Origin: a virus
Taxonomy: Duplodnaviria > Heunggongvirae > Uroviricota > Caudoviricetes
DNA: 11,389 bases
Reading direction: 5' to 3' (one strand)
IMG/VR virus record: IMGVR_UViG_3300029167_000082
Numbering within the stretch: position 1 is the first letter of the stretch; every line of letters begins with the position of its first letter. This document shows positions 1 through 10,732 of this stretch, one piece after another. The position numbers and the translations under genes are program-made. Under the pieces are notes generated by a model. The model was not told the origin of the DNA, ran no database searches, and saw only the letters and a list, made by a program, of their open reading frames with translations.

Positions 1-642
1 TCATTCTTCACCCACCAATTCATCCAGTTCAGCCAGCGTCAGAGGCTTTGGTACAGGCTTGTCGATATCGCCCATAATGCGCTGGAAGTTTCTGGCGGGC
101 ATATGGTTACGGTTCTCCAGTATTTTCGCCAGCGCGATAACATCCCACCATTTCAGGGTAATCAGCGCCTGAGCGCGGGAAAGGGATATTCGCTGTATAT
201 CGGCGTCCTCCCCACCAGCTACCCGGTATACCTCGGATAAATCACGAACATTTTTCATATCTGCTTTCCCGGACGTTTCCATCAGTGCGTCAATATCATC
301 CTCCGTATAGCGTGATTGCGCGACGATACCAGCCAGAGAGATAACCATAGCCCGGCATACCTGGTCTATCAGACGTAACCTGGTGTCATCATTCGAGAGG
401 GTGTAAGACTTAACCTCAGCCACATTCCGTGGATAGTTGGCGTGCCATACCGCGACAGCTCCACATTCATCAACATCGCCGCTAAGGTAGGTTTTTGCCA
501 CTCGGTTATTACCCGATAACGCAATTTCTACCTCCTGTATGCCGAAAAACCATGCGGCTATCGCATGACCTGCTTCATGTATTGCAAGATGTCTGGGCCA
601 GCGATAGCTGCCGAACTCAATAATGATGGGTTGCGTACTCAT
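1..642 (-). CDS. FtsH-like (M41-type) zinc metallopeptidase-domain protein, 213 aa
   Basis: ORF-track frame 1..720. HEAGHAIAAW (HExxH zinc-binding motif, identical to the FtsH HEAGHA core) lies 19 aa from the proposed start. Start placed at ATG 640..642 (MSTQPIII) because GAGAGGGAAG lies just upstream and it leaves a 10-nt gap after the SSB stop. TGA stop occupies 1..3, so the CDS is complete at the window edge. Confidence 0.7.
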   Translation of the reverse strand: MSTQPIIIEFGSYRWPRHLAIHEAGHAIAAWFFGIQEVEIALSGNNRVAKTYLSGDVDECGAVAVWHANYPRNVAEVKSYTLSNDDTRLRLIDQVCRAMVISLAGIVAQSRYTEDDIDALMETSGKADMKNVRDLSEVYRVAGGEDADIQRISLSRAQALITLKWWDVIALAKILENRNHMPARNFQRIMGDIDKPVPKPLTLAELDELVGEE

Positions 643-652
643 ATCTTCCCTC

Positions 653-1087
653 TCAGAATGGCGTTTCATCGTCGAATGGTGGGCGTTGGTCGTATTCATC
701 ACGGGATGGCTGCTGCGCACGTCTCAGCGCGTCCGTTGCCTGTCCCCGCTGTCCTGCCTTCCCGCCGGGGCGTACCGTTCTGGCGCTGATCACACTGTCG
801 GCTACTACCTGATACCCCTGCTGTGTACCGCCGTCCTGCCCTGTCCACTGGTTGAGTTGCATATTGCCTGCCACGCTCACAAGGTCGCCTTTCTGGTGCT
901 TCGCCAGCGCATCGGCCTGCTTCCCAAAAGCAATAACGCCCAGCCAGAAGGTTGACTCTCCCGCCTCTGCCGCATTACAGGGGAGAGACACCGCCAGCCG
1001 CGCCATAGCCATGTTGTTACCGTTCGTTGTGGTGCGGGTCTGGGGATCTGCCACCAGCCGCCCGTATGCTGAAATTTGTGCTGTCAT
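653..1087 (-). CDS. ssb: Single-stranded DNA-binding protein (SSB-like), 144 aa
   Basis: OB-fold-like pattern (GRLVADPQ..R.T..G, W..V.AFGK.A, KGDLVSV.G, Y.VVAD.V), a Gly/Gln-rich linker and an acidic C-terminal tail DDETPF resembling the SSB DDDIPF tip. GAGGAA RBS 8 nt upstream of the ATG. Start overlaps the stop of the upstream gene (ATGA). Confidence 0.8.
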   Translation of the reverse strand: MTAQISAYGRLVADPQTRTTTNGNNMAMARLAVSLPCNAAEAGESTFWLGVIAFGKQADALAKHQKGDLVSVAGNMQLNQWTGQDGGTQQGYQVVADSVISARTVRPGGKAGQRGQATDALRRAQQPSRDEYDQRPPFDDETPF

Positions 1088-1703: not shown

Positions 1704-4145
1704 TCAATCATCACTCTGCCCGCTCTCCACACCGTAAGCGCGTGGCATGAACTCCTCAGCCTTCTCGTTATAGCCAACGTTGGTTTGCGCTCTGCCGTTA
1801 ATGCTTCTCGTCAGGTAGCTGGCTCGGTACTCTTTTGCTGCTGATTTTATGGCGCGTGAAAACTTATTGACGGAAAGCGGTTTACCCAAACCGTGATACT
1901 CCATAAACGCCAGATAAAGATGATAAAGATACGTCCTAGGCTCTGGCTGGCCTGCCCATGTACCTCCGCCCATCATCATGCCTTTGGGTTCGTTCATGAA
2001 AAAAAGTGCCGCACACATATCGATAACCGGATCTGTGCCGCGTTTAACGTCTAGCGCCTCCTGAGAATCGCGCTGCTCAAGTAATAGTGACTTTGCTTTG
2101 TTCTGGTCGGCAAAGGTGGTTAGCAGGTGGCGGATAATCACCGGGATTTCTCGCCTGATTTTTGCGGTTAAATCCGGGTCTTTGTCTGCGTCTGATACCG
2201 GGTTATTAAACGGGAATATCACGCGGCGGCGGGCAATGCCCCCGTTTCGCTCCGTGAATGTCATCGGCTCGTTATTGGTTGCCATAACAACGGCATTTAT
2301 CACGGTTGTGAACTGCTTTTCATATTTCCCATCAATCTCTACCGGATCGCCGCCCGTAATGGCTTTAATCCCCGCACCCTCTCCAACATAGCGGGTCTGG
2401 TCAGGCATAATAATCAGGCTTTTTCCTACGAACTGCGCCCGTCCCCGTGCGGTGTCCAGCGTCATCATGCTACCGCTGGCGGTGTTGTGTTCACCTGCCA
2501 GCGTGGTTGCTATGCTGCTGAATACGGATTTCCCACTACCGCCCTCGCCAGTTATCTCAATGAATAGCTGCCAGTCGTGACGCTTCGCCAGCACCATAAA
2601 CAAGGCTGCTTTGATACGCTCGGCCTTATGATGGTCGCCAGCCGTTGCATGATTCAGCCAACGGGTAAAATTGGGGGCGCTGGTGGTAATATTTTCCCCC
2701 GGCGCTGGCGGGGTGTAGGTGATCCCATTGTGGTTCATCAGCCAGTTACCCGGCGAATGGGCGGAAAACGTCTGCGTAGCGAGGTCATAAACGCCGTTAT
2801 CAAAACCAATCAGATCCCCGCTCCGCTCACCAATTACCGGTATTTGCAGCTTCATGGTTGCGACAACCGATTTAATCCCCTTTTCGGTGTAGTGGGCTTC
2901 GTGCTCGTCGAAAATTGCCACCATAACCCTTTCTAATTCGCTGTCTGGTAGCTTCACCCATACGCCAGATTCGTAGCAGTAAACAGTGCCACTATCAGGG
3001 TTAACCGCCAACATATCCCATCGAGATGAAAGCAACCGCGCTTTCTGGCTGGCTGCCATTTGTGCAATATCTCCGACATCGGCTTTACGGCGGGATTTAC
3101 CGCCCTCAATGGCTTGCAATCGCGGTTTCACGGCTTCCCCTTGAATCTGGTACATCGAATCGTTAAACGCAGCCGTAGCGACTTCCAGCCCGTTTTGCTG
3201 GCGGTAGTCGTCCCAGTCGGCTTTGTAGTCTGTCGGCGGCAGTGCCACCCAGCCAGCCACGGATAAGGCGGCTTTCTCTGCGGCATCTTTGCCCGTGTTC
3301 GCCTGTTCGTCCTGCTGGTGGTCGTTATCTGCGGCAATGATAATCTGCGTGGCTGGATATATCCGGCGCATCACTTCGGCAACGGGTAGCAGGTTGCCCG
3401 CGTCAATTGCTGCCACTGCCAGCGCGTCCGGGCGCATCAGGTGAACTGAAAGGGCCGTCGCCAGCCCCTCGGCAATTAAAACGCTCTGCGGCGATTCTGG
3501 CGCGTTTACGGCGTGATATGCCCCGCGCTTTGCTGAACCTGTCAGGAGTCGCTTCTCTCCCTGCGGTGTAATGGTTTGCGCTGCTGCCACTGCGCCGGAT
3601 TCGTCCACCAGCTCCAGCAATAACGAACCATCCGGCATAACCGGATAGTTAAACCCGGTCAGCCCTTTTGATTGCAGGTAATCAGATTCGCCCTGTGTGG
3701 CACTCTGGCGCATTCCGGCATACAGATGGGCAAACGTAGCCCTTCGCTGCTCTGCGTCATCTGCTGCCTGTTGCTGGCGCTCCTGCTCACGCTGCTGGCG
3801 GTCAGCTTCCAGTTGCTCCCTTCTCTGGCTCGCTGCCGCCGGGTCGGTTTGCGCTGCCCGGTAATCAATACCCAGCACATCAGCGGCAAGCTGTGCCGCC
3901 TCTGTGGTGTCGCAGTTGTTCACCTTCTTAATCAGGTCTAAGCCGTCGCCCGCGCCGCATTGGTTACAGATAAAGCTACCGCGACCGTTGTCGTCGAACC
4001 GGAAGCGATCCGTACCGCCACATGCAGGGCAGGGGGCATGACGGCGTGATGAATCAGGCACGTCGATAGACAGGCCAGCCAGCACATAAGGCCAGCGCCC
4101 TGCTGCGGCGCTGGTCACTTCGCGGATAAGGTCGATATTACGCAT
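1704..4145 (-). CDS. P4 alpha-type bifunctional DNA primase / helicase (zinc-binding N-terminus, TOPRIM primase, P-loop NTPase/helicase), about 813 aa
   Basis: ORF-track frame 1704..4178. N-terminal CPACGG...CNQCG zinc-finger-like motif; TOPRIM-like IAEGLATALS and IIAADNDHQ; Walker A GEGGSGKS. Start placed at ATG 4143..4145 (MRNIDLI) because AGGAGG lies 5 nt upstream; the alternative ATG at 4176..4178 lacks an RBS. Confidence 0.85.
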   Translation of the reverse strand: MRNIDLIREVTSAAAGRWPYVLAGLSIDVPDSSRRHAPCPACGGTDRFRFDDNGRGSFICNQCGAGDGLDLIKKVNNCDTTEAAQLAADVLGIDYRAAQTDPAAASQRREQLEADRQQREQERQQQAADDAEQRRATFAHLYAGMRQSATQGESDYLQSKGLTGFNYPVMPDGSLLLELVDESGAVAAAQTITPQGEKRLLTGSAKRGAYHAVNAPESPQSVLIAEGLATALSVHLMRPDALAVAAIDAGNLLPVAEVMRRIYPATQIIIAADNDHQQDEQANTGKDAAEKAALSVAGWVALPPTDYKADWDDYRQQNGLEVATAAFNDSMYQIQGEAVKPRLQAIEGGKSRRKADVGDIAQMAASQKARLLSSRWDMLAVNPDSGTVYCYESGVWVKLPDSELERVMVAIFDEHEAHYTEKGIKSVVATMKLQIPVIGERSGDLIGFDNGVYDLATQTFSAHSPGNWLMNHNGITYTPPAPGENITTSAPNFTRWLNHATAGDHHKAERIKAALFMVLAKRHDWQLFIEITGEGGSGKSVFSSIATTLAGEHNTASGSMMTLDTARGRAQFVGKSLIIMPDQTRYVGEGAGIKAITGGDPVEIDGKYEKQFTTVINAVVMATNNEPMTFTERNGGIARRRVIFPFNNPVSDADKDPDLTAKIRREIPVIIRHLLTTFADQNKAKSLLLEQRDSQEALDVKRGTDPVIDMCAALFFMNEPKGMMMGGGTWAGQPEPRTYLYHLYLAFMEYHGLGKPLSVNKFSRAIKSAAKEYRASYLTRSINGRAQTNVGYNEKAEEFMPRAYGVESGQSDD

Positions 4146-4479
4146 GGTTGCCTCCTGCCACGGTCGCGCCCATATCATTAATCATGCTTTGCCATATCTC
4201 GCGCCCGGTATCAGTCAGGCCACCAGCATTGACGCATTTCTCCAGCATGGTGATCCCGATGCTTTCCCACTGAGGGTATGTCTCTTTGAGTGCTTCGAGC
4301 GCGTAACCATCAATAAGTTGGCGCGTGCCACTGATACCGCCCACCAGTTCCACACGGATTTGCTGGCCTGCCGCGTCAACCATGAAGTAATTGCCACCAT
4401 TGATAGCCGTGATGTGGTTGTAAAGTGCCGCCGCGTACTGGTTCGCCAGCGCATTCAGTCGGAAGTTTTTGGTAATCAT
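4138..4479 (-). CDS. Hypothetical protein, 113 aa
   Basis: ORF-track ORF. GAGGGGG RBS 5 nt upstream of the ATG. Its 3' end overlaps the primase start by 8 nt. No motif recognised. Confidence 0.55.
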   Translation of the reverse strand: MITKNFRLNALANQYAAALYNHITAINGGNYFMVDAAGQQIRVELVGGISGTRQLIDGYALEALKETYPQWESIGITMLEKCVNAGGLTDTGREIWQSMINDMGATVAGGNHA

Positions 4480-4488
4480 GTCGCCCCC

Positions 4489-5115
4489 TCAGTGCGCCGC
4501 TGGCATTTCAGGCCAGCCGTTTTCATCCAGATCAGCAATGAAGTGATCGTGTAGCTCTGCCAGCGTTTCACGTCCGAACGGGGTCAGCTCGCCGCGCTCC
4601 GTATCCAGCATGGCGCGGTAGAACACAATGGCGTTCTCTGTTCCCTGCTCAACGCCGTAGCGCTCAATCATTGCGCCCTCGATGTTGTTCGCCATCGCCA
4701 GCCGTTCAGCAAACGGGTAAACCACCATGCCCGCATTACCATTGGAGTAAATCGCCACCTGCGATGATGTGCCGTCAGCCTCAGTAACCGTGGTGGTGCC
4801 GTTCTCGCGCTTCATCTCAGAAACGAACGTCGCAGCAATCAGCCAGCGCCACATAGTGACGTTATGCTGCGCGGTGAAGTCGAACCAGCCACGCTCCCCG
4901 CCGTCAGCCACTGCCAGATGCAGGGTAAATCCTTCATCAGGGATGTCGTCATACCTGCCGCTATCGAGATGAGTTACCGCGTCTGAATAGGGAACAAGGC
5001 AAACATGCTCATACATCCCGGCATCATTGCGGGTCATGATATTGACGCCGTGCGGTGTGGCTTCGGCGTGGAACAGGTCGGGATTTCCCGGTTTAATGGT
5101 CAGTATATTGCTCAT
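4489..5115 (-). CDS. Hypothetical protein, 208 aa
   Basis: ORF-track ORF. GGGAGGG RBS about 7 nt upstream. Start overlaps the stop of the upstream 73-aa gene (ATGA). No motif recognised. Confidence 0.6.
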   Translation of the reverse strand: MSNILTIKPGNPDLFHAEATPHGVNIMTRNDAGMYEHVCLVPYSDAVTHLDSGRYDDIPDEGFTLHLAVADGGERGWFDFTAQHNVTMWRWLIAATFVSEMKRENGTTTVTEADGTSSQVAIYSNGNAGMVVYPFAERLAMANNIEGAMIERYGVEQGTENAIVFYRAMLDTERGELTPFGRETLAELHDHFIADLDENGWPEMPAAH

Positions 5116-5333
5116 GCTTTGCCCTCCCGATATTCACGCATCACATAGTCAGCCAGCTTGCTTTCGGCTTCTTCCATTGCCTCCGGGACGCCATGCAGCA
5201 AAGTGAGGATTGAACCGATAAGACGCGGAAGGTCGGGGCTAGTGTCTTTGTTGGTGCTCTCCAGCCACATGGATAAAACAGCCTGTGCCGGTTCAATCTG
5301 GCAGGCAGCATCAATCAGTTGTAACTGGCTCAT
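5112..5333 (-). CDS. Small hypothetical protein, 73 aa (paralog of the adjacent 59-aa ORF)
   Basis: ORF-track ORF with GGAGAG RBS. Shares the pattern AQ.VL.MWL...(acidic)...L..L with the neighbouring 59-aa ORF. ATGA overlaps at both ends. Confidence 0.5.
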   Translation of the reverse strand: MSQLQLIDAACQIEPAQAVLSMWLESTNKDTSPDLPRLIGSILTLLHGVPEAMEEAESKLADYVMREYREGKA

Positions 5334-5509
5334 TTGTCACTCTCCACTGCCAGCGCATCGGCCAGCCCGTCTAAGATTGTCAGCACCGCATCCACCATAT
5401 CGGGCGCTTCCCCGTCGTCGGTGGTCATGGTGTGAAGCCACATGGTGAGGACGGTCTGCGCCTGTTGGATTCTGCACATTACTTCACTAACGCTTAGTCC
5501 CTGTTTCAT
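5330..5509 (-). CDS. Small hypothetical protein, 59 aa (not in the supplied ORF track; paralog of the 73-aa ORF)
   Basis: Hand-translated: ATG at 5507..5509 preceded by GGGAGGGG 6 nt upstream, reading MKQGLSVSEVMCRIQQAQTVLTMWLHTMTTDDGEAPDMVDAVLTILDGLADALAVESDK, TGA at 5330..5332. Both ends overlap neighbours in ATGA fashion. Confidence 0.45.
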   Translation of the reverse strand: MKQGLSVSEVMCRIQQAQTVLTMWLHTMTTDDGEAPDMVDAVLTILDGLADALAVESDK

Positions 5510-5703
5510 CGCTTCCCCTCCCGTTCTGCCAATTCTTCAATCAGCCATGCGGTAACGTCACCGGAAAGGCGCTTTAGCGGAGTGGCGATTGCGGATACTT
5601 CGCTATCGGCAAGGTGATGGGGGAAGTCTTCAACCAGACGGGCAATTATTTCAGTCTGGTGCGCGCGTTCTGCGGCCTGCTCTAAGGTGAGTTCACGGCT
5701 CAT
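5506..5703 (-). CDS. Small hypothetical protein, 65 aa
   Basis: ORF-track ORF. GGAGGTGG RBS 5 nt upstream. ATGA overlap with the Icd-like gene stop. No motif recognised. Confidence 0.5.
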   Translation of the reverse strand: MSRELTLEQAAERAHQTEIIARLVEDFPHHLADSEVSAIATPLKRLSGDVTAWLIEELAEREGKR

Positions 5704-5888
5704 GCTGCCACCTCCAGACGGATGCGGCCTGCAAAGAAACAGACGTGATCTCGTGCCAGAGTTTGACGTGCTTCGCGCTCGCTTTCGGCAGCAACATGAT
5801 GGATTTTGGCGGTAATTGTCGGCATGTCGCGGCGAACGGCTGCGATTAACCAGATAAATTGTGGATTTTGGGTAGGGGTAGTAGCCAT
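5700..5888 (-). CDS. Small protein, 62 aa, possibly Icd-like (host cell division inhibitor family as annotated in P4-like islands)
   Basis: C-terminal 62 codons of ORF-track frame 5700..6578. Internal ATG at 5886..5888 (MATTPTQNPQF) is preceded by a strong AAGGAGG RBS. The Icd-like assignment is from recalled resemblance only and is not verified. Confidence 0.5.
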   Translation of the reverse strand: MATTPTQNPQFIWLIAAVRRDMPTITAKIHHVAAESEREARQTLARDHVCFFAGRIRLEVAA

Positions 5889-6077
5889 GATGGCAGCCTC
5901 CTTTGTGTTTAAGGAGTCACCGCCTGAGTTTCCACGCTCTGAAATGGCGGTGACGTTAGCAGGGGTGGAAATACCGGACACAAAGGAAACCGGCCTACGC
6001 GAACGTAGCCCCACTAACGCCACCATAGATACAGTACGGACGAGGCCGCTGATTTGATGTGCGTAGTGAACGGACAC

Positions 6078-6100
6078 AAAAAAAGACGCTTTCGGCGTCT
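6078..6100 (-). terminator. Rho-independent terminator inside the non-coding control region
   Basis: Minus-strand RNA reads AGACGC-CGAAA-GCGUCU followed by six U: stem 6084..6089 / 6095..6100, loop 6090..6094, A-run on plus at 6078..6083. Lies about 190 nt upstream of the Icd-like start. Confidence 0.6.
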
Positions 6101-6155
6101 GTGTCGCCCTGAGTGTGTTCGGGTTTCCACGCCCGGTTGCTGATTTTGCAGCAAC
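6078..6155 (-). ncRNA. Candidate ~75-80 nt small RNA (possible P4 CI / P1 c4-type immunity RNA analogue)
   Basis: Extended -10-like TGTTATAGT on the minus strand (hexamer at plus 6162..6167) about 7 nt upstream of a run that folds as hairpin 6136..6155 (GTTGCTG / CAGCAAC), hairpin 6120..6135 (CGGG-TTTCCACG-CCCG) and the terminator hairpin. Prediction by eye only. Confidence 0.3.
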
Positions 6156-6516
6156 ACTGGGACTATAACACTGATTTTCCTGCTGGTGGTCTGACCTGTA
6201 GGTACTGCCCTTTTTTACATAGTCCGAAAACTCCCCAGACGGGCGCGTAATGCTCCGAAAACTCAAGACAGCGGAATAATTTTCCACTGGCGTAGTGTTG
6301 TCAGAAAAAACTTTCTCGCGCGTACTGGTCACGAAATGCGAAAAAAACTTAGGATTTATTAGGATTCGCAGCCCAATTCTCAGCCCAGAAAACGCCTCTA
6401 AAATGTCGTCATTTGTCGCAACGGCGCGGCGATGAATGTCAGGTTTTGACAGGTTGTAAGGGTTAACATTTGCTAACAGGCCAGCCAGATTAAAGGCTTC
6501 TTTCTGGGCGGCAGGT

Positions 6517-6699
6517 TCATTCAGTATCACGGCGCACCTCCACGAACTCATTAACGAATCTCTCCAAAGGCTGAACACATGGCGACTGATAGCCCTCGCG
6601 GTAAAAGGTCACTCGGTTATGCTCGACGCGCTCAACGGTCACTACAGCCCCGTGAGAATCCTTGTAACGGCTTCCCGGCTGGGGGTTTTGGTTACGCAT
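6517..6699 (-). CDS. Small hypothetical protein, 60 aa
   Basis: ORF-track ORF. Its start overlaps the antirepressor stop by 8 nt, so it is the last gene of the alpA-led operon. No motif recognised. Confidence 0.5.
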   Translation of the reverse strand: MRNQNPQPGSRYKDSHGAVVTVERVEHNRVTFYREGYQSPCVQPLERFVNEFVEVRRDTE

Positions 6700-7525
6700 G
6701 GCTTACCCTCATACGCTTCGCCAGCCAGCGCTGAGACAGTCGTATTAATTCAGCTTTGCGCTGGTCGTAGTCCTGCCCCAGCTCAATTAGCGTGATATTG
6801 GTGCTTTCCAGATAGGAGAGGTGTTCAAGCTGTGCTGCGTTCATGCTGTCCCGTGGTTCGCCAGTAATGCCATTTGCCTGCGCCCACTGCTTTGCCGTCA
6901 TGCCACCCAGCACGATACGGGCGATCATGTTGCTCTCGTTGCTGTAGTGGCGCTGCTGCGTCGTTTTACCCAGCTCGGCACGGGCCATATTCAGCGCATC
7001 GCACATTGGCTTAAAGTTGTTTGCGGCACTGATACGGGCTTTTAGCTGGCGACGATAGCGGGCGGCGATTTCAGGCACGGTACGCTGTAATTCTTCCTCG
7101 CACTGGATGAAATAACGGCGGATAGCGCGACCCTGATCATTGCGTTCGATCATTGCCAGTTCTTTCGCCATTCCGACACTTAACAGATAGTCTTTGCCGG
7201 GTCTGCCAGAGTGCTTTATCTTGCTGTAAGCCGCGCCATTCGGGCTTTTCCCCAAATTTGGGGAAATTGTTTTATGGACTGAGTAATCGTGCCCAATGGT
7301 GAAGTCATATTCAGAGATGCGATCAGTGATCCATGTAGAGAAGTCTTTTCCCACGCCCAACGCTTTGTGTAACGCTTTTGCGCTAACAATATTGGTTTCA
7401 CGCCCACCGATATGACCAGGAATAACCGGGACAATTGCGGCAAATTCATTACCGTTAATTGTGCCCAGAGAGGCGTTCAGATGAGGGGCGGCCTCAGAAA
7501 TTAATCTGCTTTTTTCGATGTTCAT
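6692..7525 (-). CDS. Phage antirepressor-type protein (AntA / Bro-N-like N-terminus, KilAC-like C-terminus), 277 aa
   Basis: ORF-track ORF. N-terminal region (FAAIVPVIPGH...ETNIVSAKALHKALGVGKDFSTWITDRI) resembles antirepressor N-domains, and the C-terminal helical region resembles KilAC. GGAGAC RBS upstream. Confidence 0.65.
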   Translation of the reverse strand: MNIEKSRLISEAAPHLNASLGTINGNEFAAIVPVIPGHIGGRETNIVSAKALHKALGVGKDFSTWITDRISEYDFTIGHDYSVHKTISPNLGKSPNGAAYSKIKHSGRPGKDYLLSVGMAKELAMIERNDQGRAIRRYFIQCEEELQRTVPEIAARYRRQLKARISAANNFKPMCDALNMARAELGKTTQQRHYSNESNMIARIVLGGMTAKQWAQANGITGEPRDSMNAAQLEHLSYLESTNITLIELGQDYDQRKAELIRLSQRWLAKRMRVSHA

Positions 7526-7537
7526 TTTCAGTCTCCG

Positions 7538-7969
7538 TTAGGCGGCGTTAAACGCGTTCGGGTAGAGTTTCAGAATGTCGGCAATTTCCTGCTGAGAAAG
7601 TCCGTTGTGATCATTTATGTTCGCAAGATGGTTAACATGAGTGATCACTTTCAGAACATCACCACGGCAGGAGAAACGGTAGCGAAGGTGTGTTCCGATA
7701 CCATCAGGATTCTTTTCGTCGATACGCTCCAGAGTGATTCCAAGCTGGCGTTCTAACTCTGTTGCATAGTTACGACCAGAAGACAGACGGCAGTAGCGAA
7801 GAATGTCATTTTCTGTCCATCCCTCTATACCAGTACGCAGCATATAGACTCTGGCACGATGCTTTTTCGGTGTGCGCTTTGGTGCTTGAAGGGATTTTGT
7901 CAGGGGCGTAACATCAGATACGCGAATATCTGAATTAGCCGCCTGTAATGGGCGGTTTTTCTTTTCCAT
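7538..7969 (-). CDS. Hypothetical protein, 143 aa, translationally coupled to alpA
   Basis: ORF-track ORF. Start ATG 7967..7969 overlaps the alpA stop (ATGA). Basic N-terminus (KRTPKKHRAR); no motif recognised. Confidence 0.55.
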   Translation of the reverse strand: MEKKNRPLQAANSDIRVSDVTPLTKSLQAPKRTPKKHRARVYMLRTGIEGWTENDILRYCRLSSGRNYATELERQLGITLERIDEKNPDGIGTHLRYRFSCRGDVLKVITHVNHLANINDHNGLSQQEIADILKLYPNAFNAA

Positions 7970-8172
7970 CAGGCCACCTTCCCGCGGCGTTCTGCCAGCC
8001 AGTTGTGAATCTCAACCGCATCAAACGCAGTTATTTTTTCTCCCAGCTTTACCGGACGTGGTAGTGAACCGTTTCTTACTTTACGGTCGATGGTGGATAC
8101 ACTAACGCCCAGCAATTCAGCCAGGCGGAAGCGTCTGATATAGCCTTTTGTAGGAATAGTGTCGGTGTTCAT
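7969..8172 (-). CDS. alpA: AlpA-family phage transcriptional regulator / excisionase-like HTH protein, 67 aa
   Basis: Size and pattern match the AlpA family (RLAELLGVSVSTIDRKVRNGSLPRPVKLGEKITAFDAVEIHNWLAER). First gene of the operon after the orphan-gene terminator. Confidence 0.8.
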   Translation of the reverse strand: MNTDTIPTKGYIRRFRLAELLGVSVSTIDRKVRNGSLPRPVKLGEKITAFDAVEIHNWLAERRGKVA

Positions 8173-8175
8173 GCT

Positions 8176-8216
8176 TCCCGTAACCTCTTAGCGATAGTTG
8201 TTGCTTCGTTACGGGA
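8176..8216. promoter_or_regulatory. 9-bp inverted repeat TCCCGTAAC / GTTACGGGA straddling the alpA translation-initiation region
   Basis: TCCCGTAAC at 8176..8184 and GTTACGGGA at 8208..8216 are perfect reverse complements, 23 nt apart, 4 nt upstream of the alpA ATG (8170..8172). Could be an operator or an mRNA hairpin over the SD. Confidence 0.4.
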
Positions 8217-8240
8217 GGAAGTATCTGTACATATATGAAC

Positions 8241-8270
8241 AATAAAAAGGCACAGTAATGATACTGTGCC
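8241..8270 (-). terminator. Rho-independent terminator downstream of the 321-aa orphan gene
   Basis: Minus-strand RNA reads GGCACAGUA-UCAU-UACUGUGCC followed by UUUUUAUU. Perfect 9-bp stem 8249..8257 / 8262..8270, starting 16 nt after the TAG stop at 8287..8289. Confidence 0.65.
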
Positions 8271-8286
8271 TGAATAGTTAGCTACT

Positions 8287-9252
8287 CTACCCCTTACCGT
8301 TGGCGGCAGCACGTAAGTGTCTCAAAATCACATCTTCATTTGTGATTGCTAACGGTGGAATTTCGTCTTTATGAGCCACTATGCAATCCCGCCACTTCTC
8401 AGGGCTTATTTCTTTCTTTTTGCCACGGCATTCATCAGGATACTTTGACAAAAGATATATTGCAGATTTGAAAAGTTTTTCCCTGTTTTCAGCATGTCTC
8501 TCGGCATTATGGTTGCTATTTTTTATTTCAGGTATTAGTTCCTGTTCTACCGCCATTTCGTATCGTTTTTTGCTCTTAGCTGCGTCAAAACTTCCATTAA
8601 CCTTTGCGTCATGAAGGTATTCTAAATCAGCCTTTGTTATATAAATGTTTTTATCTGACAGGCTACTCAGGTGAATTTGGGAACTTTGCATTTTGAATTT
8701 ATATAGATCACAATCAAATGTTGCTTCAAGTCGCACATATGGTTCTCCACATTCTTGTGAATGATAATGTCGTGTTGTTCTACCGCGTACACGCAACAAT
8801 CCACATGCAATTGATTTTCTTACAATAAAAGAGTTTTTGCCAATTTGTTCAAAAACATTTTTATTGTCGCTGTCTTCAACTGTCAGTGGTTTATGTGCAT
8901 AAAATAGCTCATAAGCACCGCTTTCAGATGCTGGGATATAAACTTCGTTGCTTGCGCTGGTAATAAGAAAAGGAAATGTAAACCTTACTTCTTCTGGGTA
9001 CATAAGTAATAAATCAGTTATAAAATTAGCATCTTTTTTGAAGTGGATGGTGGCATCAGATTCAATGAAATCAAGAAAGTCAGCATAGACATAAAAGTCT
9101 ATATGTAGTCTATCTTTCCAATGCCATATATCATCAATTTCACAATTTAATAATTTTGATGCTCGCTCTATCGTGCAGTAGTCCAAAGGTGGAATACCTG
9201 ATTCCTGCCATAAATTTCTATGCACCACTGTTGTTTCATGAGAGTCGTTCAT
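8287..9252 (-). CDS. Hypothetical protein, 321 aa; AT-rich orphan gene in the integrase-adjacent slot
   Basis: ORF-track ORF. AAAGGTGA RBS 6 nt upstream. Hand-counted 60-nt samples give about 32-38% GC against about 53% in a primase sample. Own terminator downstream. No catalytic motif recognised by eye. Confidence 0.75.
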   Translation of the reverse strand: MNDSHETTVVHRNLWQESGIPPLDYCTIERASKLLNCEIDDIWHWKDRLHIDFYVYADFLDFIESDATIHFKKDANFITDLLLMYPEEVRFTFPFLITSASNEVYIPASESGAYELFYAHKPLTVEDSDNKNVFEQIGKNSFIVRKSIACGLLRVRGRTTRHYHSQECGEPYVRLEATFDCDLYKFKMQSSQIHLSSLSDKNIYITKADLEYLHDAKVNGSFDAAKSKKRYEMAVEQELIPEIKNSNHNAERHAENREKLFKSAIYLLSKYPDECRGKKKEISPEKWRDCIVAHKDEIPPLAITNEDVILRHLRAAANGKG

Positions 9253-9347
9253 TGCGTCACCTTTTACGCTGCGCCTTATTTTGTGATTGAGCCAGGCGGT
9301 AAGGCTTCCCGCTTTTCGCCCCGTCGAGCTAGGCTCAATCTATTCAG

Positions 9348-10607
9348 TTAGTTCGCCCTTCTGAGAGGCGTTACGTTGTAGTCTTTTCCGCTTTCCAGTG
9401 CCACCAGCAGATCAGCCCACTGTGCCAGTGCTGCTTTACGCTCATCAAAATACTGATGGCGGTTATAAATCCCCTCTACGCCCTTAATGCGATGATTGAG
9501 GCATCGTTCCGCCACGACAGGATCAACACCCAACGCTGCTAAATGAGTACGTGCGGTGCGTCGGAAGTCGTGAATCGTGAAATTAGGCACATCCGGCATT
9601 TCGGCGCGAACCTTAGCCAGTGCTACGGGCAAAGTGCTTTCCTGAATATGTGGGATCATTCTGTTTTGCATCTTCCTGGCTGGAAGCACCCATGCGCTAT
9701 TACATGAAAAGGTGTGTAGCTCTCTCAACCATTCAACGGCTGGGGAAGGTAGAGGTATATCAATAGGGTCTCCGTTTTTGCTGCGTTCTTCCGGCAAATG
9801 CCATACCGCACCATCTAAATCAAACTCTTCCCATCGTGCGGCGCATAACTCCATCTTACGAACGCATAGTGCCAGCAATAGCTTAAATGTCAGTTCGTTC
9901 TGGCGGCTGAATCCTTTTGCGGTGCGCATAGCCTCGAATAGCCTGATAAGCTCATCGCGAGTTAGCCAACGGTCGCGGGAAACCTCTTTACCACCAGCAT
10001 CAGATACTTCAAACGCTGAACAAGGGTTTATCTCCAGAGCGTGGCGTTTTATCCCGTAGTCAAAGATACGGCGTGTCCAGCGTAATACATCTGTTGCTAT
10101 CGTTGGTGCTCCTCGGTCAACGATACCTTTCAACATGTCGTCAATGTGGCGTGGCTTAACGTCCTCTACCTTCATATGCCCAATGCAGGGGTTAATATCC
10201 TTATCAATTCTCCGGCGAAGGATATCGGGATGTTTCCATCTCGGAAGTATCTGGCGCTCGAAGTATTCGGAGGCCAGATCTGAAACACGCATGGCGTTTT
10301 TCTCAGCCTCCATTTTTGCCAGTGCTTCAGCTTTTCGTTCCTGTTTCTCTGCTGCTACGTCATAGCCAAGAGCAACTCTGGCTGACAGCTCTTTTGCTGT
10401 TTCTCTGGCTTTTGATAGTGACAGTTCGGAGTAAGAGCCTATAACCATAGCCCGCTGCTTTCCTGCGAGCTTATAGCGGAATCGCCAGAACGGGGCTGTG
10501 TAGTTTTTGGGGTAGCAAATATAAAGGCCGTTGCCGTCTGCCTTGCCATCAAATCTGTCTCCCGCCTTTATCCATGCGCGGATCTGCATATCTGTGAGTT
10601 TTGGCAT
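9348..10607 (-). CDS. int: P4-family tyrosine recombinase / integrase, 419 aa
   Basis: ORF-track frame 9348..10691. N-terminus MPKLTD..I.AWIK....DGK.DGNGLYI...WRFRYK matches the P4-type arm-binding domain. C-terminal catalytic region has HDFRRTARTHLAALG and GIYNRHQY (candidate catalytic Tyr). Start chosen at ATG 10605..10607 by homology pattern; the upstream ATG at 10691 lacks an RBS. Confidence 0.9.
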   Translation of the reverse strand: MPKLTDMQIRAWIKAGDRFDGKADGNGLYICYPKNYTAPFWRFRYKLAGKQRAMVIGSYSELSLSKARETAKELSARVALGYDVAAEKQERKAEALAKMEAEKNAMRVSDLASEYFERQILPRWKHPDILRRRIDKDINPCIGHMKVEDVKPRHIDDMLKGIVDRGAPTIATDVLRWTRRIFDYGIKRHALEINPCSAFEVSDAGGKEVSRDRWLTRDELIRLFEAMRTAKGFSRQNELTFKLLLALCVRKMELCAARWEEFDLDGAVWHLPEERSKNGDPIDIPLPSPAVEWLRELHTFSCNSAWVLPARKMQNRMIPHIQESTLPVALAKVRAEMPDVPNFTIHDFRRTARTHLAALGVDPVVAERCLNHRIKGVEGIYNRHQYFDERKAALAQWADLLVALESGKDYNVTPLRRAN

Positions 10608-10635
10608 TGCGAATACCTGAATATCGAATATGGGT

Positions 10636-10688
10636 GTGTACATAAAGCAATGTACATGAAAGTCATTATGTACACCTCTATGTACACG
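10636..10688 (+). repeat. Four direct repeats of (A)TGTACA(T/C) upstream of int; candidate integrase arm-type or regulator binding sites
   Basis: TGTACAT at 10637 and 10651, TGTACAC at 10669 and 10681, all within about 50 bp between the int start and the yicC terminator. One more TGTACAT at 8226..8232 upstream of alpA. Confidence 0.45.
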
Positions 10689-10732
10689 CATATTGTGCGC
10701 TTTATTGCGTCGTTATGATAGCTCATGATAAC

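What the first reader, a model, noticed from the sequence alone, without database searches (positions are those of the whole stretch)
5889..6516. Non-coding control region with internal terminator and candidate small RNA, resembling P4 CI / P1 c4 RNA-based immunity
About 630 bp between the 60-aa gene and the Icd-like gene carry no convincing gene. On the transcribed strand there is a textbook intrinsic terminator (6078..6100) about 190 nt upstream of the Icd-like start, preceded by two small hairpins (6136..6155 and 6120..6135) and an extended -10-like TGTTATAGT (hexamer 6162..6167). Together these predict a ~75-80 nt RNA, the size class of the P4 CI and P1 c4 RNAs that lie upstream of icd/ant-type genes and control downstream expression. 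A perfect 9-bp inverted repeat (GTCACCGCC 5916..5924 / GGCGGTGAC 5946..5954) sits 28-66 nt upstream of the Icd-like start and could be the target or attenuator structure. A GGCUACG-UUCG-CGUAGGCC hairpin is also present near 5992..6010.
Basis: partly seen in the sequence, partly recalled or inferred. Interest (0 to 1): 0.7.

Follow-up and report, generated by a model that had tools for sequence, protein, structure and literature searches.

The report
P4-type RNA immunity region, satellite island
The stretch is the RNA-based "immunity" switch of a phage-P4-like satellite island in E. coli: a short decoy or target RNA, a processed antisense RNA and its target on the next gene's ribosome-binding site; this is a well-described kind of system, so the finding is real but ordinary.

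Summary
Three Rfam families match above their curated thresholds on the minus strand:
- isrK (P4 seqA) at 6155..6079
- c4-a1b1 at 6168..6116
- C4 antisense RNA (P4 CI RNA) at 6030..5943

- The promoter-proximal, terminated 77-nt RNA is the seqA/IsrK target or decoy RNA, not the repressor.
- The repressor is the next structure downstream.
- Its loop b' pairs with 10-12 nt across the Icd-like Shine-Dalgarno sequence. Its junction a' pairs with GUGGAAA copies upstream (a1) and downstream (a2).
- In 60 distinct related modules, including phage P4 itself, all four pairings and the RNA folds covary.

The region is also not ORF-free. A long frame, 5700..6530, runs through all the RNAs into the Icd-like gene, as P4 eta does into kil. 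It stays open across relatives but shows no protein-like substitution pattern.

RefSeq, Pfam (Phage_ASH) and PHROGs annotate these RNAs as protein.

Verdict: a new member of a known kind, of low interest.

The parts
6162..6170 (-). PLE-like promoter: extended -10, TG at 6170..6169 and TATAGT at 6167..6162. There is no good -35. The predicted start is G6155.
   Evidence: Sequence. P4 has the same TATAGT at the same distance from the first hairpin (alignment). Relatives have TATGGT there, with TTGCCG 18 nt upstream. The consensus scan did not report it because the -35 is poor. Activity is inferred, not shown.
6079..6155 (-). IsrK-like / P4 seqA-like short RNA (77 nt): hairpin 1 at 6155..6136, hairpin 2 at 6135..6120 with a1 (GUGGAAA, 6130..6124) in its loop, and a degenerate b1 at about 6116..6107.
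   Evidence: Rfam isrK scores 72.1 bits against a cut-off of 50, and c4-a1b1 scores 54.9 bits against 46.7. a1:a' is paired in 99.0% of cells and 6 of 7 pairs covary. b1:b' is paired in 92.4% of cells across the family, but only 5 of 9 pairs form in this window.
6077..6100 (-). Intrinsic terminator at the end of the IsrK-like RNA, the equivalent of P4 t1: stem AGACGC/GCGUCU at 6100..6084, then seven U.
   Evidence: Terminator scan. It is part of the isrK model match. It is conserved in all 60 related modules, including P4.
5943..6030 (-). C4 / P4 CI-type antisense RNA. The predicted mature form is about 80 nt, 6024..5945, ending in GCCA. Loop b' is at 5987..5978 and junction a' at 5971..5965.
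   Evidence: Rfam C4 scores 81.1 bits against a cut-off of 45. The minimum-free-energy fold equals the family fold, at -38.9 kcal/mol and z = -4.75. The basal stem is 100% paired with 11 of 17 pairs covarying, and all 5 pairs of hairpin 1 covary. The mature ends are inferred from P1 and P4.
5929..5935 (-). a2 (GUGGAAA), the downstream target of a' and part of the P4 seqC equivalent.
   Evidence: 7-nt perfect complement. a':a2 is paired in 99.5% of cells and 6 of 7 pairs covary. The E. coli ET479 copy changes a', a1 and a2 together, to GUGAGAA.
5897..5908 (-). b2 (ACACAAAGGA, 5908..5899), overlapping the Shine-Dalgarno sequence AAGGAGG (5903..5897) of the Icd/Kil-like gene.
   Evidence: 10-nt perfect complement to b', or 12 nt counting G-U pairs. 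The duplex energy is -15.4 kcal/mol. b':b2 is paired in 85.3% of cells and 8 of 10 pairs covary.
5916..5954 (-). Alternative hairpin: the c4 3' arm plus GCC (5954..5946) pairs with 5924..5916, with a2 in the 21-nt loop. It cannot form together with the bottom of the c4 basal stem.
   Evidence: It is paired in 96.3% of cells and 5 of 9 pairs covary across 60 modules. Its role is not established.
5700..5888 (-). Icd-like / P4 Kil-like gene (62 aa), the first gene controlled by the module.
   Evidence: NCBIfam phage_ICD_like scores 73.7 bits, and P4 Kil hits the same model at 76.1 bits. The two proteins are 43% identical, E = 2e-10. Differences from ET479 fall 3:3:17 by codon position.
5700..6530 (-). 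Eta-like read-through ORF (276 codons from GTG 6530; GGAGG at 6541..6537; an alternative ATG at 6551). It crosses the promoter, IsrK, terminator, c4 and a2/b2 in frame with the Icd-like gene. Its start overlaps the 3' end of the DUF4222 gene.
   Evidence: This frame has 0 stops in 700 nt, against 11 and 14 in the other two frames. A conserved GGAGG plus start codon is seen in relatives. P4 eta (8168..8812) has the same layout and reading frame. There is no excess of third-position changes.
5801..5920 (-). C-rich, G-poor stretch at the start of the Icd-like gene, a candidate Rho entry site (compare P4 timm inside kil).
   Evidence: C is 30-36% and G 14-15% in 80-nt windows. This is an inference from composition only.

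Best explanation
Window 5889..6516 is the immunity region of a P4-like satellite or PICI-type island. It is homologous, piece by piece, to the phage P4 region PLE-seqA-t1-cI-seqC-kil, nested inside the eta reading frame.

**Proposed working in the quiescent island**
1. A promoter inside the eta-like frame (-10 at 6167..6162) starts transcription at about 6155.
2. Most transcripts stop at the intrinsic terminator (6100..6077). This yields a 77-nt IsrK/seqA-like RNA.
3. Read-through transcripts carry the C4/CI structure (6030..5943). This is cut out to a stable RNA of about 80 nt; in P1 and P4 the 5' cut is made by RNase P.
4. That RNA pairs through junction a' and loop b' with a2 and b2 on read-through transcripts.
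5. The pairing covers the Shine-Dalgarno sequence of the Icd/Kil-like gene. The gene is not translated, and transcription ends before the downstream replication genes (small ORFs, then the P4-family primase at 1704..4178).
6. The same a' and b' also pair with a1 and b1 in the IsrK/seqA RNA. This either strengthens termination at the first terminator (CI autoregulation, as in P4) or titrates the repressor (as for Gifsy-1 IsrK).

**Proposed bypass on induction**
1. Transcription arrives from the upstream alpA-ant-DUF4222 operon.
2. Ribosomes start the eta-like frame at GTG 6530 and translate through the whole module.
3. Translation prevents formation of the terminator, pairing by the repressor RNA, and Rho action. 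The replication genes are then expressed regardless of immunity.

**Shown here:** the homology, the folds, all four complementarities with covariation, and the conserved open frame with its start signal.

**Inferred from P4, P1 and Gifsy-1:** promoter activity, RNA processing, termination, and the bypass by translation.
For: **RNA family matches**
- Rfam C4, isrK and c4-a1b1 all match above their gathering scores.
- Phage P4 itself gives the same two RNAs in the same order (C4 at 8420-8507, isrK at 8615-8692). They lie inside its eta ORF (8168..8812), whose last 65 codons are Kil.
- The P1-like phage RCS47 has the same isrK-then-C4 order upstream of icd/ant.

**Protein homology**
- The window's Icd-like protein and P4 Kil are 43% identical (E = 2e-10). 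Both hit NCBIfam phage_ICD_like.

**Complementarities in the window**

| Pairing | Length | Duplex energy (kcal/mol) |
|---|---|---|
| b':b2 | 10 nt perfect | -15.4 |
| a':a2 | 7 nt | -8.9 |
| a':a1 | 7 nt | -10.6 |

**Covariation across 60 distinct modules** (alignment A1)
- Folds plus a':a2 and b':b2: 95.9% of cells paired. 38 of 62 pairs change on both sides. The covariation score is 0.418, against 0.08 or less when partners are slid.
- a1:a': 99.0% paired.
- b1:b': 92.4% paired, score 0.862 against 0.16 or less when slid.
- There are 11 a' types and 19 b' types, in 25 combinations. Own targets match over 7-10 nt; foreign targets match over about 4-5 nt.
- Within E. coli, the ET479 copy changes a', a1 and a2 by the same two bases.

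**The eta-like frame**
- It has 0 stops, against 11 and 14 in the other two frames.
- It is open from upstream of IsrK in 61 of 63 distinct modules, for a median of 630 nt.
- Homologous blocks keep the frame in 119 of 127 matched segments.
- A conserved GGAGG plus ATG/GTG sits at the end of the upstream gene.

**Literature**
- PMC10111431 states that Rfam C4 and isrK detect CI and seqA relatives in Gram-negative PICIs. It also states that eta translation prevents termination and that Kil is a truncated Eta.
- PMC3632133 equates IsrK and C4 with P4 seqA and CI RNA.
- PMC4825925 shows experimentally that, in Gifsy-1, the IsrK terminator is partly read through. An RNA of about 80 nt is processed from the read-through transcript, and a1/a'-type mutations change downstream translation.
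Against: - There are no expression data for this element. Promoter use, terminator leakiness, RNA processing and Rho dependence are all inferred.
- b1 in this window is degenerate: 5 of 9 pairs in the family register, -8.4 kcal/mol. The seqA branch of the circuit may therefore be weak here.
- The -35 of the internal promoter is poor, and the consensus scan did not report the promoter.
- The island lacks annotated P4 sid, psu and delta genes. It also has ant and DUF4222 genes between alpA and the eta-like frame, so it is not P4 in the strict sense.
- The original P4 papers could not be read. Details of t1, t4 and timm rest on my own recall and on secondary summaries.
Confidence: 0.85

Rival explanations
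1. Gifsy-1 IsrK-type activation is the main function. The short 77-nt RNA acts in trans on the read-through transcript: it pairs with the a'/b' region, opens an inactive structure and switches on translation of the downstream frame. On this reading it is an inducer rather than part of a repression circuit.
For: - The 77-nt RNA matches the isrK model.
- In Gifsy-1, IsrK expressed in trans raised downstream translation about 140-fold, and mutations in a1 (G28A, G31A) abolished this.
- The AUG that starts Gifsy-1 orf45 corresponds to the conserved AUGGUGG at the 5' edge of c4 (6026..6024). In this window that AUG is in frame with the Icd-like gene.
Against: - It is not exclusive of the P4 model. 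Titrating the CI/c4 RNA gives the same genetic outcome.
- b1 is degenerate here, so pairing between IsrK and c4 is weaker than in relatives.
- The element resembles P4 in its eta/kil nesting and its primase. For P4, the literature gives CI as the repressor and seqA as its target.
Confidence: 0.25
2. One reading: the promoter-proximal terminated RNA (6160..6078) is the CI/c4-like repressor, and the 9-bp inverted repeat is its target or an attenuator.
For: The RNA is the right size (77 nt), has its own promoter and terminator, and lies upstream of an Icd-like gene.
Against: - It matches isrK and c4-a1b1, not C4. The C4 model matches 6030..5943 at 81 bits.
- The 77-nt RNA carries copies of the target sequences (a1 = a2 = GCGUGGAAAC), not their complements. 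It therefore cannot pair with the Icd leader.
- The inverted repeat is a c4 stem arm plus a downstream partner.
Confidence: 0.03
3. The region encodes a genuine 276-aa 'Ash-Icd' protein, as RefSeq annotates it, and the RNA matches are incidental to that coding sequence.
For: - PGAP calls 5700..6530 a CDS.
- Pfam Phage_ASH matches at 84 bits.
- The frame is open, has a strong GGAGG start signal, and insertions and deletions preserve the frame.
Against: - The Phage_ASH match covers nt 6167..5865, which is exactly the RNA elements.
- Changes from ET479 fall 9:7:10 (part upstream of the RNAs) and 5:9:10 (RNA module) by codon position. This compares with 3:3:17 for the Icd-like gene and 7:5:20 for DUF4222.
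- A column-wise count gives 164:155:180.
- A conserved nucleotide motif is read in two different frames.
- In 28 of 63 modules the long frame is out of phase with the Icd-like gene.
- Changes in the stems are compensatory at the RNA level.
Confidence: 0.03
4. The module is an inactive relic of a defective island, intact in sequence but no longer regulating anything.
For: - b1 is degenerate.
- No capsid-redirecting genes are annotated in the island.
- One carrier strain has an IS element inserted in the island.
Against: - All other pairings and folds are perfect.
- The downstream operon has intact, overlapping ORFs through the primase.
- Identical copies occur in 8 complete E. coli genomes, and related copies show coordinated compensatory change.
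Confidence: 0.08

Closest known systems
Phage P4 immunity region (PLE promoter, seqA, terminator t1, cI/CI RNA, seqC, nested genes eta and kil)
   Same: - The same order of elements on one strand.
- The same two Rfam RNAs.
- TATAGT as the -10 just before the first hairpin.
- An intrinsic terminator after seqA.
- An a2/b2-type target over the kil/icd Shine-Dalgarno sequence.
- A Kil homologue, 43% identical.
- A long eta-like frame crossing everything in the same phase.
- A P4-family primase downstream.
- An AlpA/Vis-type gene upstream.
   Different: - The a and b specificities differ. P4 has a' UUCUCAC and b' CCUGUGAA; the window has UUUCCAC and CCUUUGUGU.
- The spacer from terminator to c4 is 48 nt here, against 107 nt in P4.
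- The eta-like frame starts at the end of a DUF4222 gene rather than at the alpA homologue. An AntA-type gene and a 143-aa gene are inserted upstream.
- Its N-terminal part is about 120 codons longer and carries a repeated nucleotide motif.
- b1 is degenerate.
- No sid, psu or delta genes are annotated in the island.
Phage P1/P7 immI operon (c4 antisense RNA, a1/b1, a2/b2, icd, ant)
   Same: - The C4 RNA fold.
- a'/b' pairing with a2/b2 over the icd ribosome-binding site.
- a1/b1 plus a terminator upstream (seen in the P1-like phage RCS47).
- Similar Icd-like N-termini: MATxPT...FIW.
- Specificity differences between relatives, as in P1/P7 heteroimmunity (the P1/P7 case is from my own knowledge).
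   Different: - In P1 the regulated gene after icd is the antirepressor ant. Here the Ant-family gene lies upstream of the module, and the regulated genes are replication genes.
- RCS47 has no long eta-like frame across c4.
Salmonella Gifsy-1 isrK-orf45-anrP locus (PMC4825925)
   Same: - An IsrK RNA with a partly read-through terminator.
- A processed RNA of about 80 nt downstream (STnc1160), equivalent to c4.
- The a1:a' pairing, which is the paper's helix b-I (G28/G31 with C162/C159).
- An ORF starting at the conserved AUG at the 5' edge of c4.
   Different: - Gifsy-1 controls an antirepressor through translational coupling from the 45-codon ORF.
- Here the corresponding frame is fused in phase to the Icd/Kil-like gene and extends far upstream.
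- The published Gifsy-1 model treats IsrK as an activator.
CI/seqA-type modules in Gram-negative PICIs and helper-embedded PICIs (PMC10111431)
   Same: - Integrase, alpA, a zone of Bro/Ant-type genes, and a primase replication module.
- The paper reports Rfam C4 and isrK hits inside that zone and interprets them as immunity functions.
   Different: - This particular island, between dinD and yicC with no tRNA target, was not checked against that paper's island list.
- No late or capsid genes were seen in the window.

Membership tests
Rfam C4 antisense RNA (RF01695; P1 c4 / P4 CI) | Covariance-model score at or above the gathering cut-off (45 bits). | tested here: met
   81.1 bits, E = 4.4e-15, full-length match to model positions 1-87 at 6030..5943.
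Rfam C4 antisense RNA (RF01695; P1 c4 / P4 CI) | A long basal stem enclosing two hairpins, supported by covariation. | tested here: met
   The minimum-free-energy fold equals the model fold. The basal stem is 100% paired with 11 of 17 pairs covarying, and all 5 pairs of hairpin 1 covary.
Rfam C4 antisense RNA (RF01695; P1 c4 / P4 CI) | Unpaired a' and loop b' complementary to a2/b2 downstream, with b2 at the ribosome-binding site of the next gene. | tested here: met
   7-nt and 10-nt perfect complements. b2 overlaps AAGGAGG. Covariation: 99.5% and 85.3% of cells paired.
Rfam C4 antisense RNA (RF01695; P1 c4 / P4 CI) | Excised from a longer transcript (5' end made by RNase P) to a stable RNA of about 77-80 nt. 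| not testable with these tools
   The only sequence support is a tRNA-like GCCA after the basal stem. Testing needs RNA mapping.
isrK (RF01394) / c4-a1b1 (RF03163) / P4 seqA | Scores at or above the gathering cut-offs (50 and 46.7 bits). | tested here: met
   72.1 and 54.9 bits.
isrK (RF01394) / c4-a1b1 (RF03163) / P4 seqA | a1, in the loop of hairpin 2, is complementary to a'. | tested here: met
   GUGGAAA at 6130..6124 against UUUCCAC. Paired in 99.0% of cells, with 6 of 7 pairs covarying.
isrK (RF01394) / c4-a1b1 (RF03163) / P4 seqA | b1, in the linker, is complementary to b'. | tested here: inconclusive
   Across the family 92.4% of cells pair. The window pairs at only 5 of 9 positions in that register, or 7 of 9 with a one-base shift and an internal loop. 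This is the weakest b1 in the set.
isrK (RF01394) / c4-a1b1 (RF03163) / P4 seqA | Its own promoter directly upstream and an intrinsic terminator at its 3' end. | tested here: met
   The terminator was found. The extended -10, TGTTATAGT, sits 7 nt before the first position of the model match. This is sequence-level evidence only.
P4-type immunity region with nested eta/kil | The first gene after the RNAs is a Kil/Icd-family protein. | tested here: met
   43% identical to P4 Kil, E = 2e-10. Both hit NF033153.
P4-type immunity region with nested eta/kil | A long ORF that starts upstream of the internal promoter, crosses seqA, cI and seqC, and ends as Kil. | tested here: met
   5700..6530 or 6578, with 0 stops in frame against 11 and 14 in the other frames. 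It has the same phase as P4 eta. It is open in 61 of 63 relatives.
P4-type immunity region with nested eta/kil | The eta start overlaps or is coupled to the upstream gene. | tested here: met
   GGAGG at 6541..6537 and GTG at 6530 lie inside the last codons of DUF4222, which ends at 6517. Relatives have ATGA overlaps.
P4-type immunity region with nested eta/kil | CI-dependent premature termination, and read-through when eta is translated. | not testable with these tools
   Supported only by analogy and by a C-rich, G-poor stretch at 5920..5801.
P4-like satellite in the strict sense (capsid-size hijacker) | Presence of sid, psu and delta genes. | tested here: not met
   None is annotated anywhere between dinD and yicC in the ECONIH4 copy of the island. 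Pfam and PHROGs scans of a subset of the window ORFs (21 of the 84 listed) gave no such hit. This rests on annotation only; structures were not examined.
P1 immI operon | An antirepressor gene (ant) immediately downstream of icd and overlapping it. | tested here: not met
   Downstream lie 65-, 59-, 73-, 208- and 113-aa ORFs and then the primase. The AntA-family gene is upstream, at 6692..7525.

The most novel reading that the evidence does not exclude
Two features that I did not find described in the papers I could read may add a layer to the P4 model.

1. **A conserved alternative hairpin.** It pairs the c4 3' arm (5954..5946) with 5924..5916, and it covaries. It cannot form together with the base of the CI/c4 stem, and it displays target a2 in its loop. 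It could be a switch that decides between maturation of the repressor RNA and exposure of its target.
2. **Frame-independent openness of the read-through frame.** In 28 of 63 related modules the frame is out of phase with the Icd/Kil gene, yet it stays open for about 360 nt beyond that gene's start. This suggests selection purely for ribosome transit across the terminator zone, not for an Eta protein.

Together with the 25 combinations of a and b specificity, this would make the module a combinatorial immunity barcode with a translation-driven override.
Probability: 0.2. Interest if true: 0.4.

Novelty: new member of a known kind. Interest (0 to 1): 0.2.

Why it matters
**Biology.** It adds one more, cleanly dissected example of P4-type RNA immunity controlling the replication module of a satellite island.

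**Annotation, the practical value.**
- RefSeq labels the region a 276-aa Icd-like protein.
- The Pfam family Phage_ASH is essentially a translation of the IsrK-C4 RNAs.
- PHROGs labels the Kil/Icd protein a transcriptional repressor.
- Some phage records extend Rha or antirepressor genes across the same RNAs.
- About one E. coli genome in six carries similar sequence (971 of 5426), so the mislabelling is widespread.

**Comparative data.** The 60-module comparison gives unusually clear three-way covariation between repressor, upstream target and downstream target. It could be used to predict which satellites and phages are immune to one another.

Tried and rejected
- **Third GUGGAAA copy (6287..6281).** It sits inside a terminator-like hairpin at 6289..6269 and looked like an extra target. 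I rejected it because it does not change in ET479, where a', a1 and a2 all change.
- **Other RNA families in 6170..6516.** A permissive Rfam search found nothing: only a 15-bit snoRNA match at E = 4.
- **Consensus promoter scan.** It missed the internal promoter and gave only chance-level sites.
- **Protein-coding test of the long frame.** There is no third-position excess. An apparent third-position deficit in pairwise counts (386:391:264) disappeared when each alignment column was counted once (164:155:180). I treat it as pseudo-replication.
- **Cross-talk with helper phages.** I scanned IMG/VR for the window's a2...b2 pair. The 18 hits are about what chance predicts. Of the five with window-like a2-to-b2 spacing that were checked with Rfam, only two, both satellites, carry real modules; the other 13 were not checked. 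The lambdoid phage mEp460 shares the a type but not the b type.
- **The TTTTGTGTCCG repeat after the terminator.** It duplicates part of b'. It is conserved in relatives whatever their b', so I take it as coincidence.
- **A TATAAT box in the spacer between terminator and c4 in many relatives.** It looked like a dedicated c4 promoter. Its flanks covary as a small hairpin and the box is absent in the window, so this is left open.
- **Original P4 papers.** PMC94026 and PMC176756 are not held.
Full report
**1. What is there**

The window is a mobile island of E. coli. It is 100% identical over 1.1 kb to strains ECONIH4, 0H15-0H26 and CAVP776. It sits between dinD and yicC, with no tRNA gene nearby.

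All the island's genes are on the minus strand, in this order:

| Coordinates | Feature |
|---|---|
| 9348..10691 | integrase |
| 9273..9339 | int-alpA RNA motif |
| 8287..9252 | 321-aa gene |
| 7969..8172 | AlpA-type regulator |
| 7538..7969 | 143-aa gene |
| 6692..7525 | AntA-family antirepressor |
| 6517..6699 | DUF4222 |
| 5889..6516 | the stretch under study |
| 5700..5888 | Icd-like gene |
| 4138..5703 | five small ORFs |
| 1704..4178 | P4-family primase-helicase |
| 653..1087 | SSB |

**2. Checking the observation**

A default Rfam scan gives three curated-threshold matches on the transcribed strand:
- isrK at 6155..6079, 72.1 bits
- c4-a1b1 at 6168..6116, 54.9 bits
- C4 antisense RNA at 6030..5943, 81.1 bits

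The C4 stretch folds into the family structure on its own, at -38.9 kcal/mol and z = -4.75.

**3. Anatomy** (transcribed strand, 5' to 3')

- **Promoter.** An extended -10, TGTTATAGT (6170..6162), lies 7 nt before G6155. P4 has the same TATAGT in the same position.
- **77-nt RNA.** It has two hairpins.
  - The loop of the second hairpin carries GUGGAAA (a1, 6130..6124).
  - A linker follows with a weak b1.
  - It ends in an intrinsic terminator, 6100..6084 plus seven U.
- **C4/CI structure.** It begins after a further 48 nt.
  - Its second hairpin loop (b', 5987..5978) is perfectly complementary to ACACAAAGGA (b2, 5908..5899). b2 overlaps the Shine-Dalgarno sequence AAGGAGG of the Icd-like gene.
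  - Its unpaired junction (a', 5971..5965) is complementary to GUGGAAA at 5935..5929 (a2) and to a1.
- **Local duplex energies**:

| Pairing | kcal/mol |
|---|---|
| b':b2 | -15.4 |
| a':a2 | -8.9 |
| a':a1 | -10.6 |
| b':b1 | -8.4 |

It pairs the 3' arm of the C4 basal stem (5954..5946) with 5924..5916, and a2 lies in the loop.

**4. Related sequences**

I collected loci encoding relatives of the Icd-like protein: 19 from genomes of Enterobacterales and 61 from IMG/VR viral contigs.
- Among the 19 genome loci, Rfam finds C4 in 18 and isrK in 17, always in the same order.
- I aligned 60 distinct modules, including the E. coli ET479 copy and phage P4 (alignment A1).

Pair counts on that alignment:

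| Structure tested | Cells paired | Pairs changed on both sides |
|---|---|---|
| RNA folds plus a':a2 and b':b2, together | 95.9% | 38 of 62 |
| a':a2 | 99.5% | 6 of 7 |
| b':b2 | 85.3% | 8 of 10 |
| a1:a' | 99.0% | 6 of 7 |
| b1:b' | 92.4% | 8 of 9 |
| alternative hairpin | 96.3% | 5 of 9 |

- The covariation score for the first row is 0.418, against 0.08 or less with partners slid.
- For b1:b' it is 0.862, against 0.16 or less.
- There are 11 a' types and 19 b' types, in 25 combinations. Each repressor matches its own targets over 7-10 nt and foreign targets over about 4-5 nt.
- ET479 is about 90% identical to the window overall. Its a', a1 and a2 all differ from the window's by the same two bases. 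Cognate a pairing is about -9 kcal/mol and cross pairing about -4.5.

**5. The region is not ORF-free**

- The frame of the Icd-like gene is open for 720 nt upstream. It has 0 stops, against 11 and 14 in the other two frames.
- RefSeq annotates 5700..6530 as one 276-aa Icd-like protein.
- The frame has a strong start signal, GGAGG at 6541..6537 and GTG at 6530, inside the end of DUF4222. Relatives have the same GGAGG followed by ATG, often as an ATGA overlap with the upstream gene.
- Across 63 distinct modules the frame is open from upstream of the IsrK-like RNA in 61, for a median of 630 nt. The other two frames together hold a median of 23 stops over the same span.
- Homologous blocks keep the frame in 119 of 127 matched segments.

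The sequence does not evolve like a protein, however.

| Segment (window vs ET479) | Differences by codon position 1:2:3 |
|---|---|
| long frame, part upstream of the RNAs | 9:7:10 |
| long frame, RNA module | 5:9:10 |
| Icd-like gene | 3:3:17 |
| DUF4222 | 7:5:20 |

- A column-wise count over many relatives gives 164:155:180.
- A conserved nucleotide motif is read in two different frames.
- In 28 of 63 modules the long frame is out of phase with the Icd-like gene but still runs about 360 nt past that gene's start.
- The Pfam Phage_ASH match (84 bits) covers nt 6167..5865, which is exactly the RNA elements.

The simplest reading is that passage of ribosomes is selected, not the peptide.

**6. 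Identification**

Phage P4 shows the same layout: isrK at 8615-8692, C4 at 8420-8507, and a 214-codon ORF (8168..8812) crossing both in the same phase. The last 65 codons of that ORF are Kil.
- Kil and the window's Icd-like protein are 43% identical (E = 2e-10) and hit the same NCBIfam model.
- The literature I could read makes the equivalences explicit: IsrK corresponds to P4 seqA and C4 to P4 CI RNA (PMC3632133; PMC4825925 discussion).
- PMC10111431 adds four points:
  - These two Rfam models hit Gram-negative PICIs.
  - A constitutive promoter lies inside eta.
  - Kil is a truncated Eta.
  - Eta translation from an upstream promoter prevents termination.
- The P1-like phage RCS47 has the same two RNAs before icd/ant but no long frame across them. 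The window is therefore of the P4 type rather than the P1 type.

**7. Mechanism**

The best-supported account is the P4 one, set out under the best explanation.
- Shown here: the homology, the folds, the four covarying pairings, and the conserved open frame with its start.
- Taken from P4, P1 and Gifsy-1, and partly from my own recall because the original P4 papers were not available: promoter activity, partial read-through, RNase P processing, Rho-dependent termination, and bypass by translation.
- A C-rich, G-poor stretch at 5920..5801 fits a Rho entry site like P4 timm inside kil. That is composition only.
- The Gifsy-1 experiments show directly that a module of this family has three properties:
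  - a leaky IsrK terminator;
  - a processed RNA of about 80 nt;
  - functional a1:a' pairing.
  
  They also keep open the alternative that the short RNA acts mainly as an activator or decoy.

**8. Differences from the model systems**

- b1 is degenerate in this lineage, that is, the window, ET479 and L029.
- An anti-Shine-Dalgarno hairpin (about 5916..5911 with 5903..5898) is present in this subfamily only.
- Ant and DUF4222 genes sit between alpA and the eta-like frame.
- The N-terminal part of that frame is long and carries the motif TTTCGTGACCAGTACGCGC (6334..6316), plus a degenerate copy.
- No sid, psu or delta genes are annotated in the island.
- The conserved alternative hairpin has no role that I could assign.

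**9. Verdict**

The system is a new member of a well-known kind.

Its main practical lesson is that databases annotate these RNAs as protein: the RefSeq Icd-like 276-aa CDS, Pfam Phage_ASH, the PHROGs 'transcriptional repressor' label, and extended Rha genes such as that of mEp460. Interest is low, at 0.2.

Noticed in passing
window 5700-6530 (-); L105 (phage mEp460) 155-1306: Databases annotate the RNA module as protein.
- RefSeq calls a 276-aa Icd-like CDS across it.
- The Pfam Phage_ASH match covers nt 6167..5865, which is the IsrK, terminator, C4 and target elements.
- PHROGs labels Icd/Kil relatives 'transcriptional repressor', probably a legacy of the old P4 'cI gene product' CDS.
- The mEp460 'Rha' CDS starts 465 nt upstream of the conserved AUG at the 5' edge of its C4 element, so it runs across an IsrK-C4 module of its own.
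   Followed up: yes
L003-L085, about 360 nt either side of the Icd-like ATG (locus position 1501): In 28 of 63 distinct related modules the long read-through frame is out of phase with the Icd/Kil gene. A 1-nt indel just before the ATG causes this. The frame nevertheless stays open to about 360 nt past that ATG, overlapping the whole Icd-like gene in another frame.
   Followed up: partly
window 6334..6316 (-), degenerate copy 6264..6243 (-); L003-L012 and others, about 300-450 nt upstream of the Icd-like ATG: A conserved nucleotide motif, TTTCG(A/T)GACCAGTACGCGC, occurs in one to three copies upstream of the internal promoter in many related islands. It is always the same bases and is read in two different frames of the long ORF. 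Phage P4 lacks it. It may be a protein-binding site or an RNA element; its function is unknown.
   Followed up: partly
window 5916-5954 (-): An alternative hairpin pairs the C4 3' arm with a downstream segment. It is conserved and covaries (96.3% of cells paired, 5 of 9 pairs with changes on both sides). It displays target a2 in its loop and competes with the base of the C4 stem. I could not assign it a role.
   Followed up: partly
window 9273-9339 (-): An int-alpA RNA motif (Rfam RF02996, 60.6 bits against a cut-off of 35.8) lies between the integrase gene and the 321-aa gene.
   Followed up: no
window 8248-8271 (-): A strong terminator-like hairpin (10-bp stem, then TTTTTATTGTT) lies just upstream of the alpA-type gene. 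It separates the integrase-side genes from the alpA-ant-DUF4222-eta operon.
   Followed up: no
window 6156-6700 versus L009 (Shimwellia pseudoproteus) 683-1223: The 541 nt upstream of the IsrK-like RNA are 98% identical between E. coli and a Shimwellia genome. Yet the a and b specificity determinants and hairpin 1 of C4 differ between the two. This points to recent exchange of flanks, or to localised diversification of the specificity sites.
   Followed up: partly
L105 (phage mEp460), transcribed strand: A lambdoid phage of E. coli carries an IsrK-C4 module with the same a type as the window (GUGGAAA / UUUCCAC) but a different b type (CACCAAAG). The a and b determinants therefore assort independently between satellites and phages.
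   Followed up: partly
window 6364-6387 and 6437-6455 (+ coordinates): Short direct repeats lie inside the upstream part of the long frame: ATTCGCAGCCCA / ATTCTCAGCCCA in tandem, and TGTCAGGTT / TGACAGGTT 10 nt apart. I did not examine them further.
   Followed up: no
L001 (E. coli ECONIH4) 11723-13333: The ECONIH4 copy of the island carries an ISSpu7-family insertion sequence between the alpA-type gene and the 321-aa gene. The insertion is absent from the window.
   Followed up: no
window 1-720 (-): A 239-aa ORF with an HEAGH metalloprotease-like motif lies at the edge of the window. It has no PHROGs hit and was not scanned against Pfam or NCBIfam.
   Followed up: no
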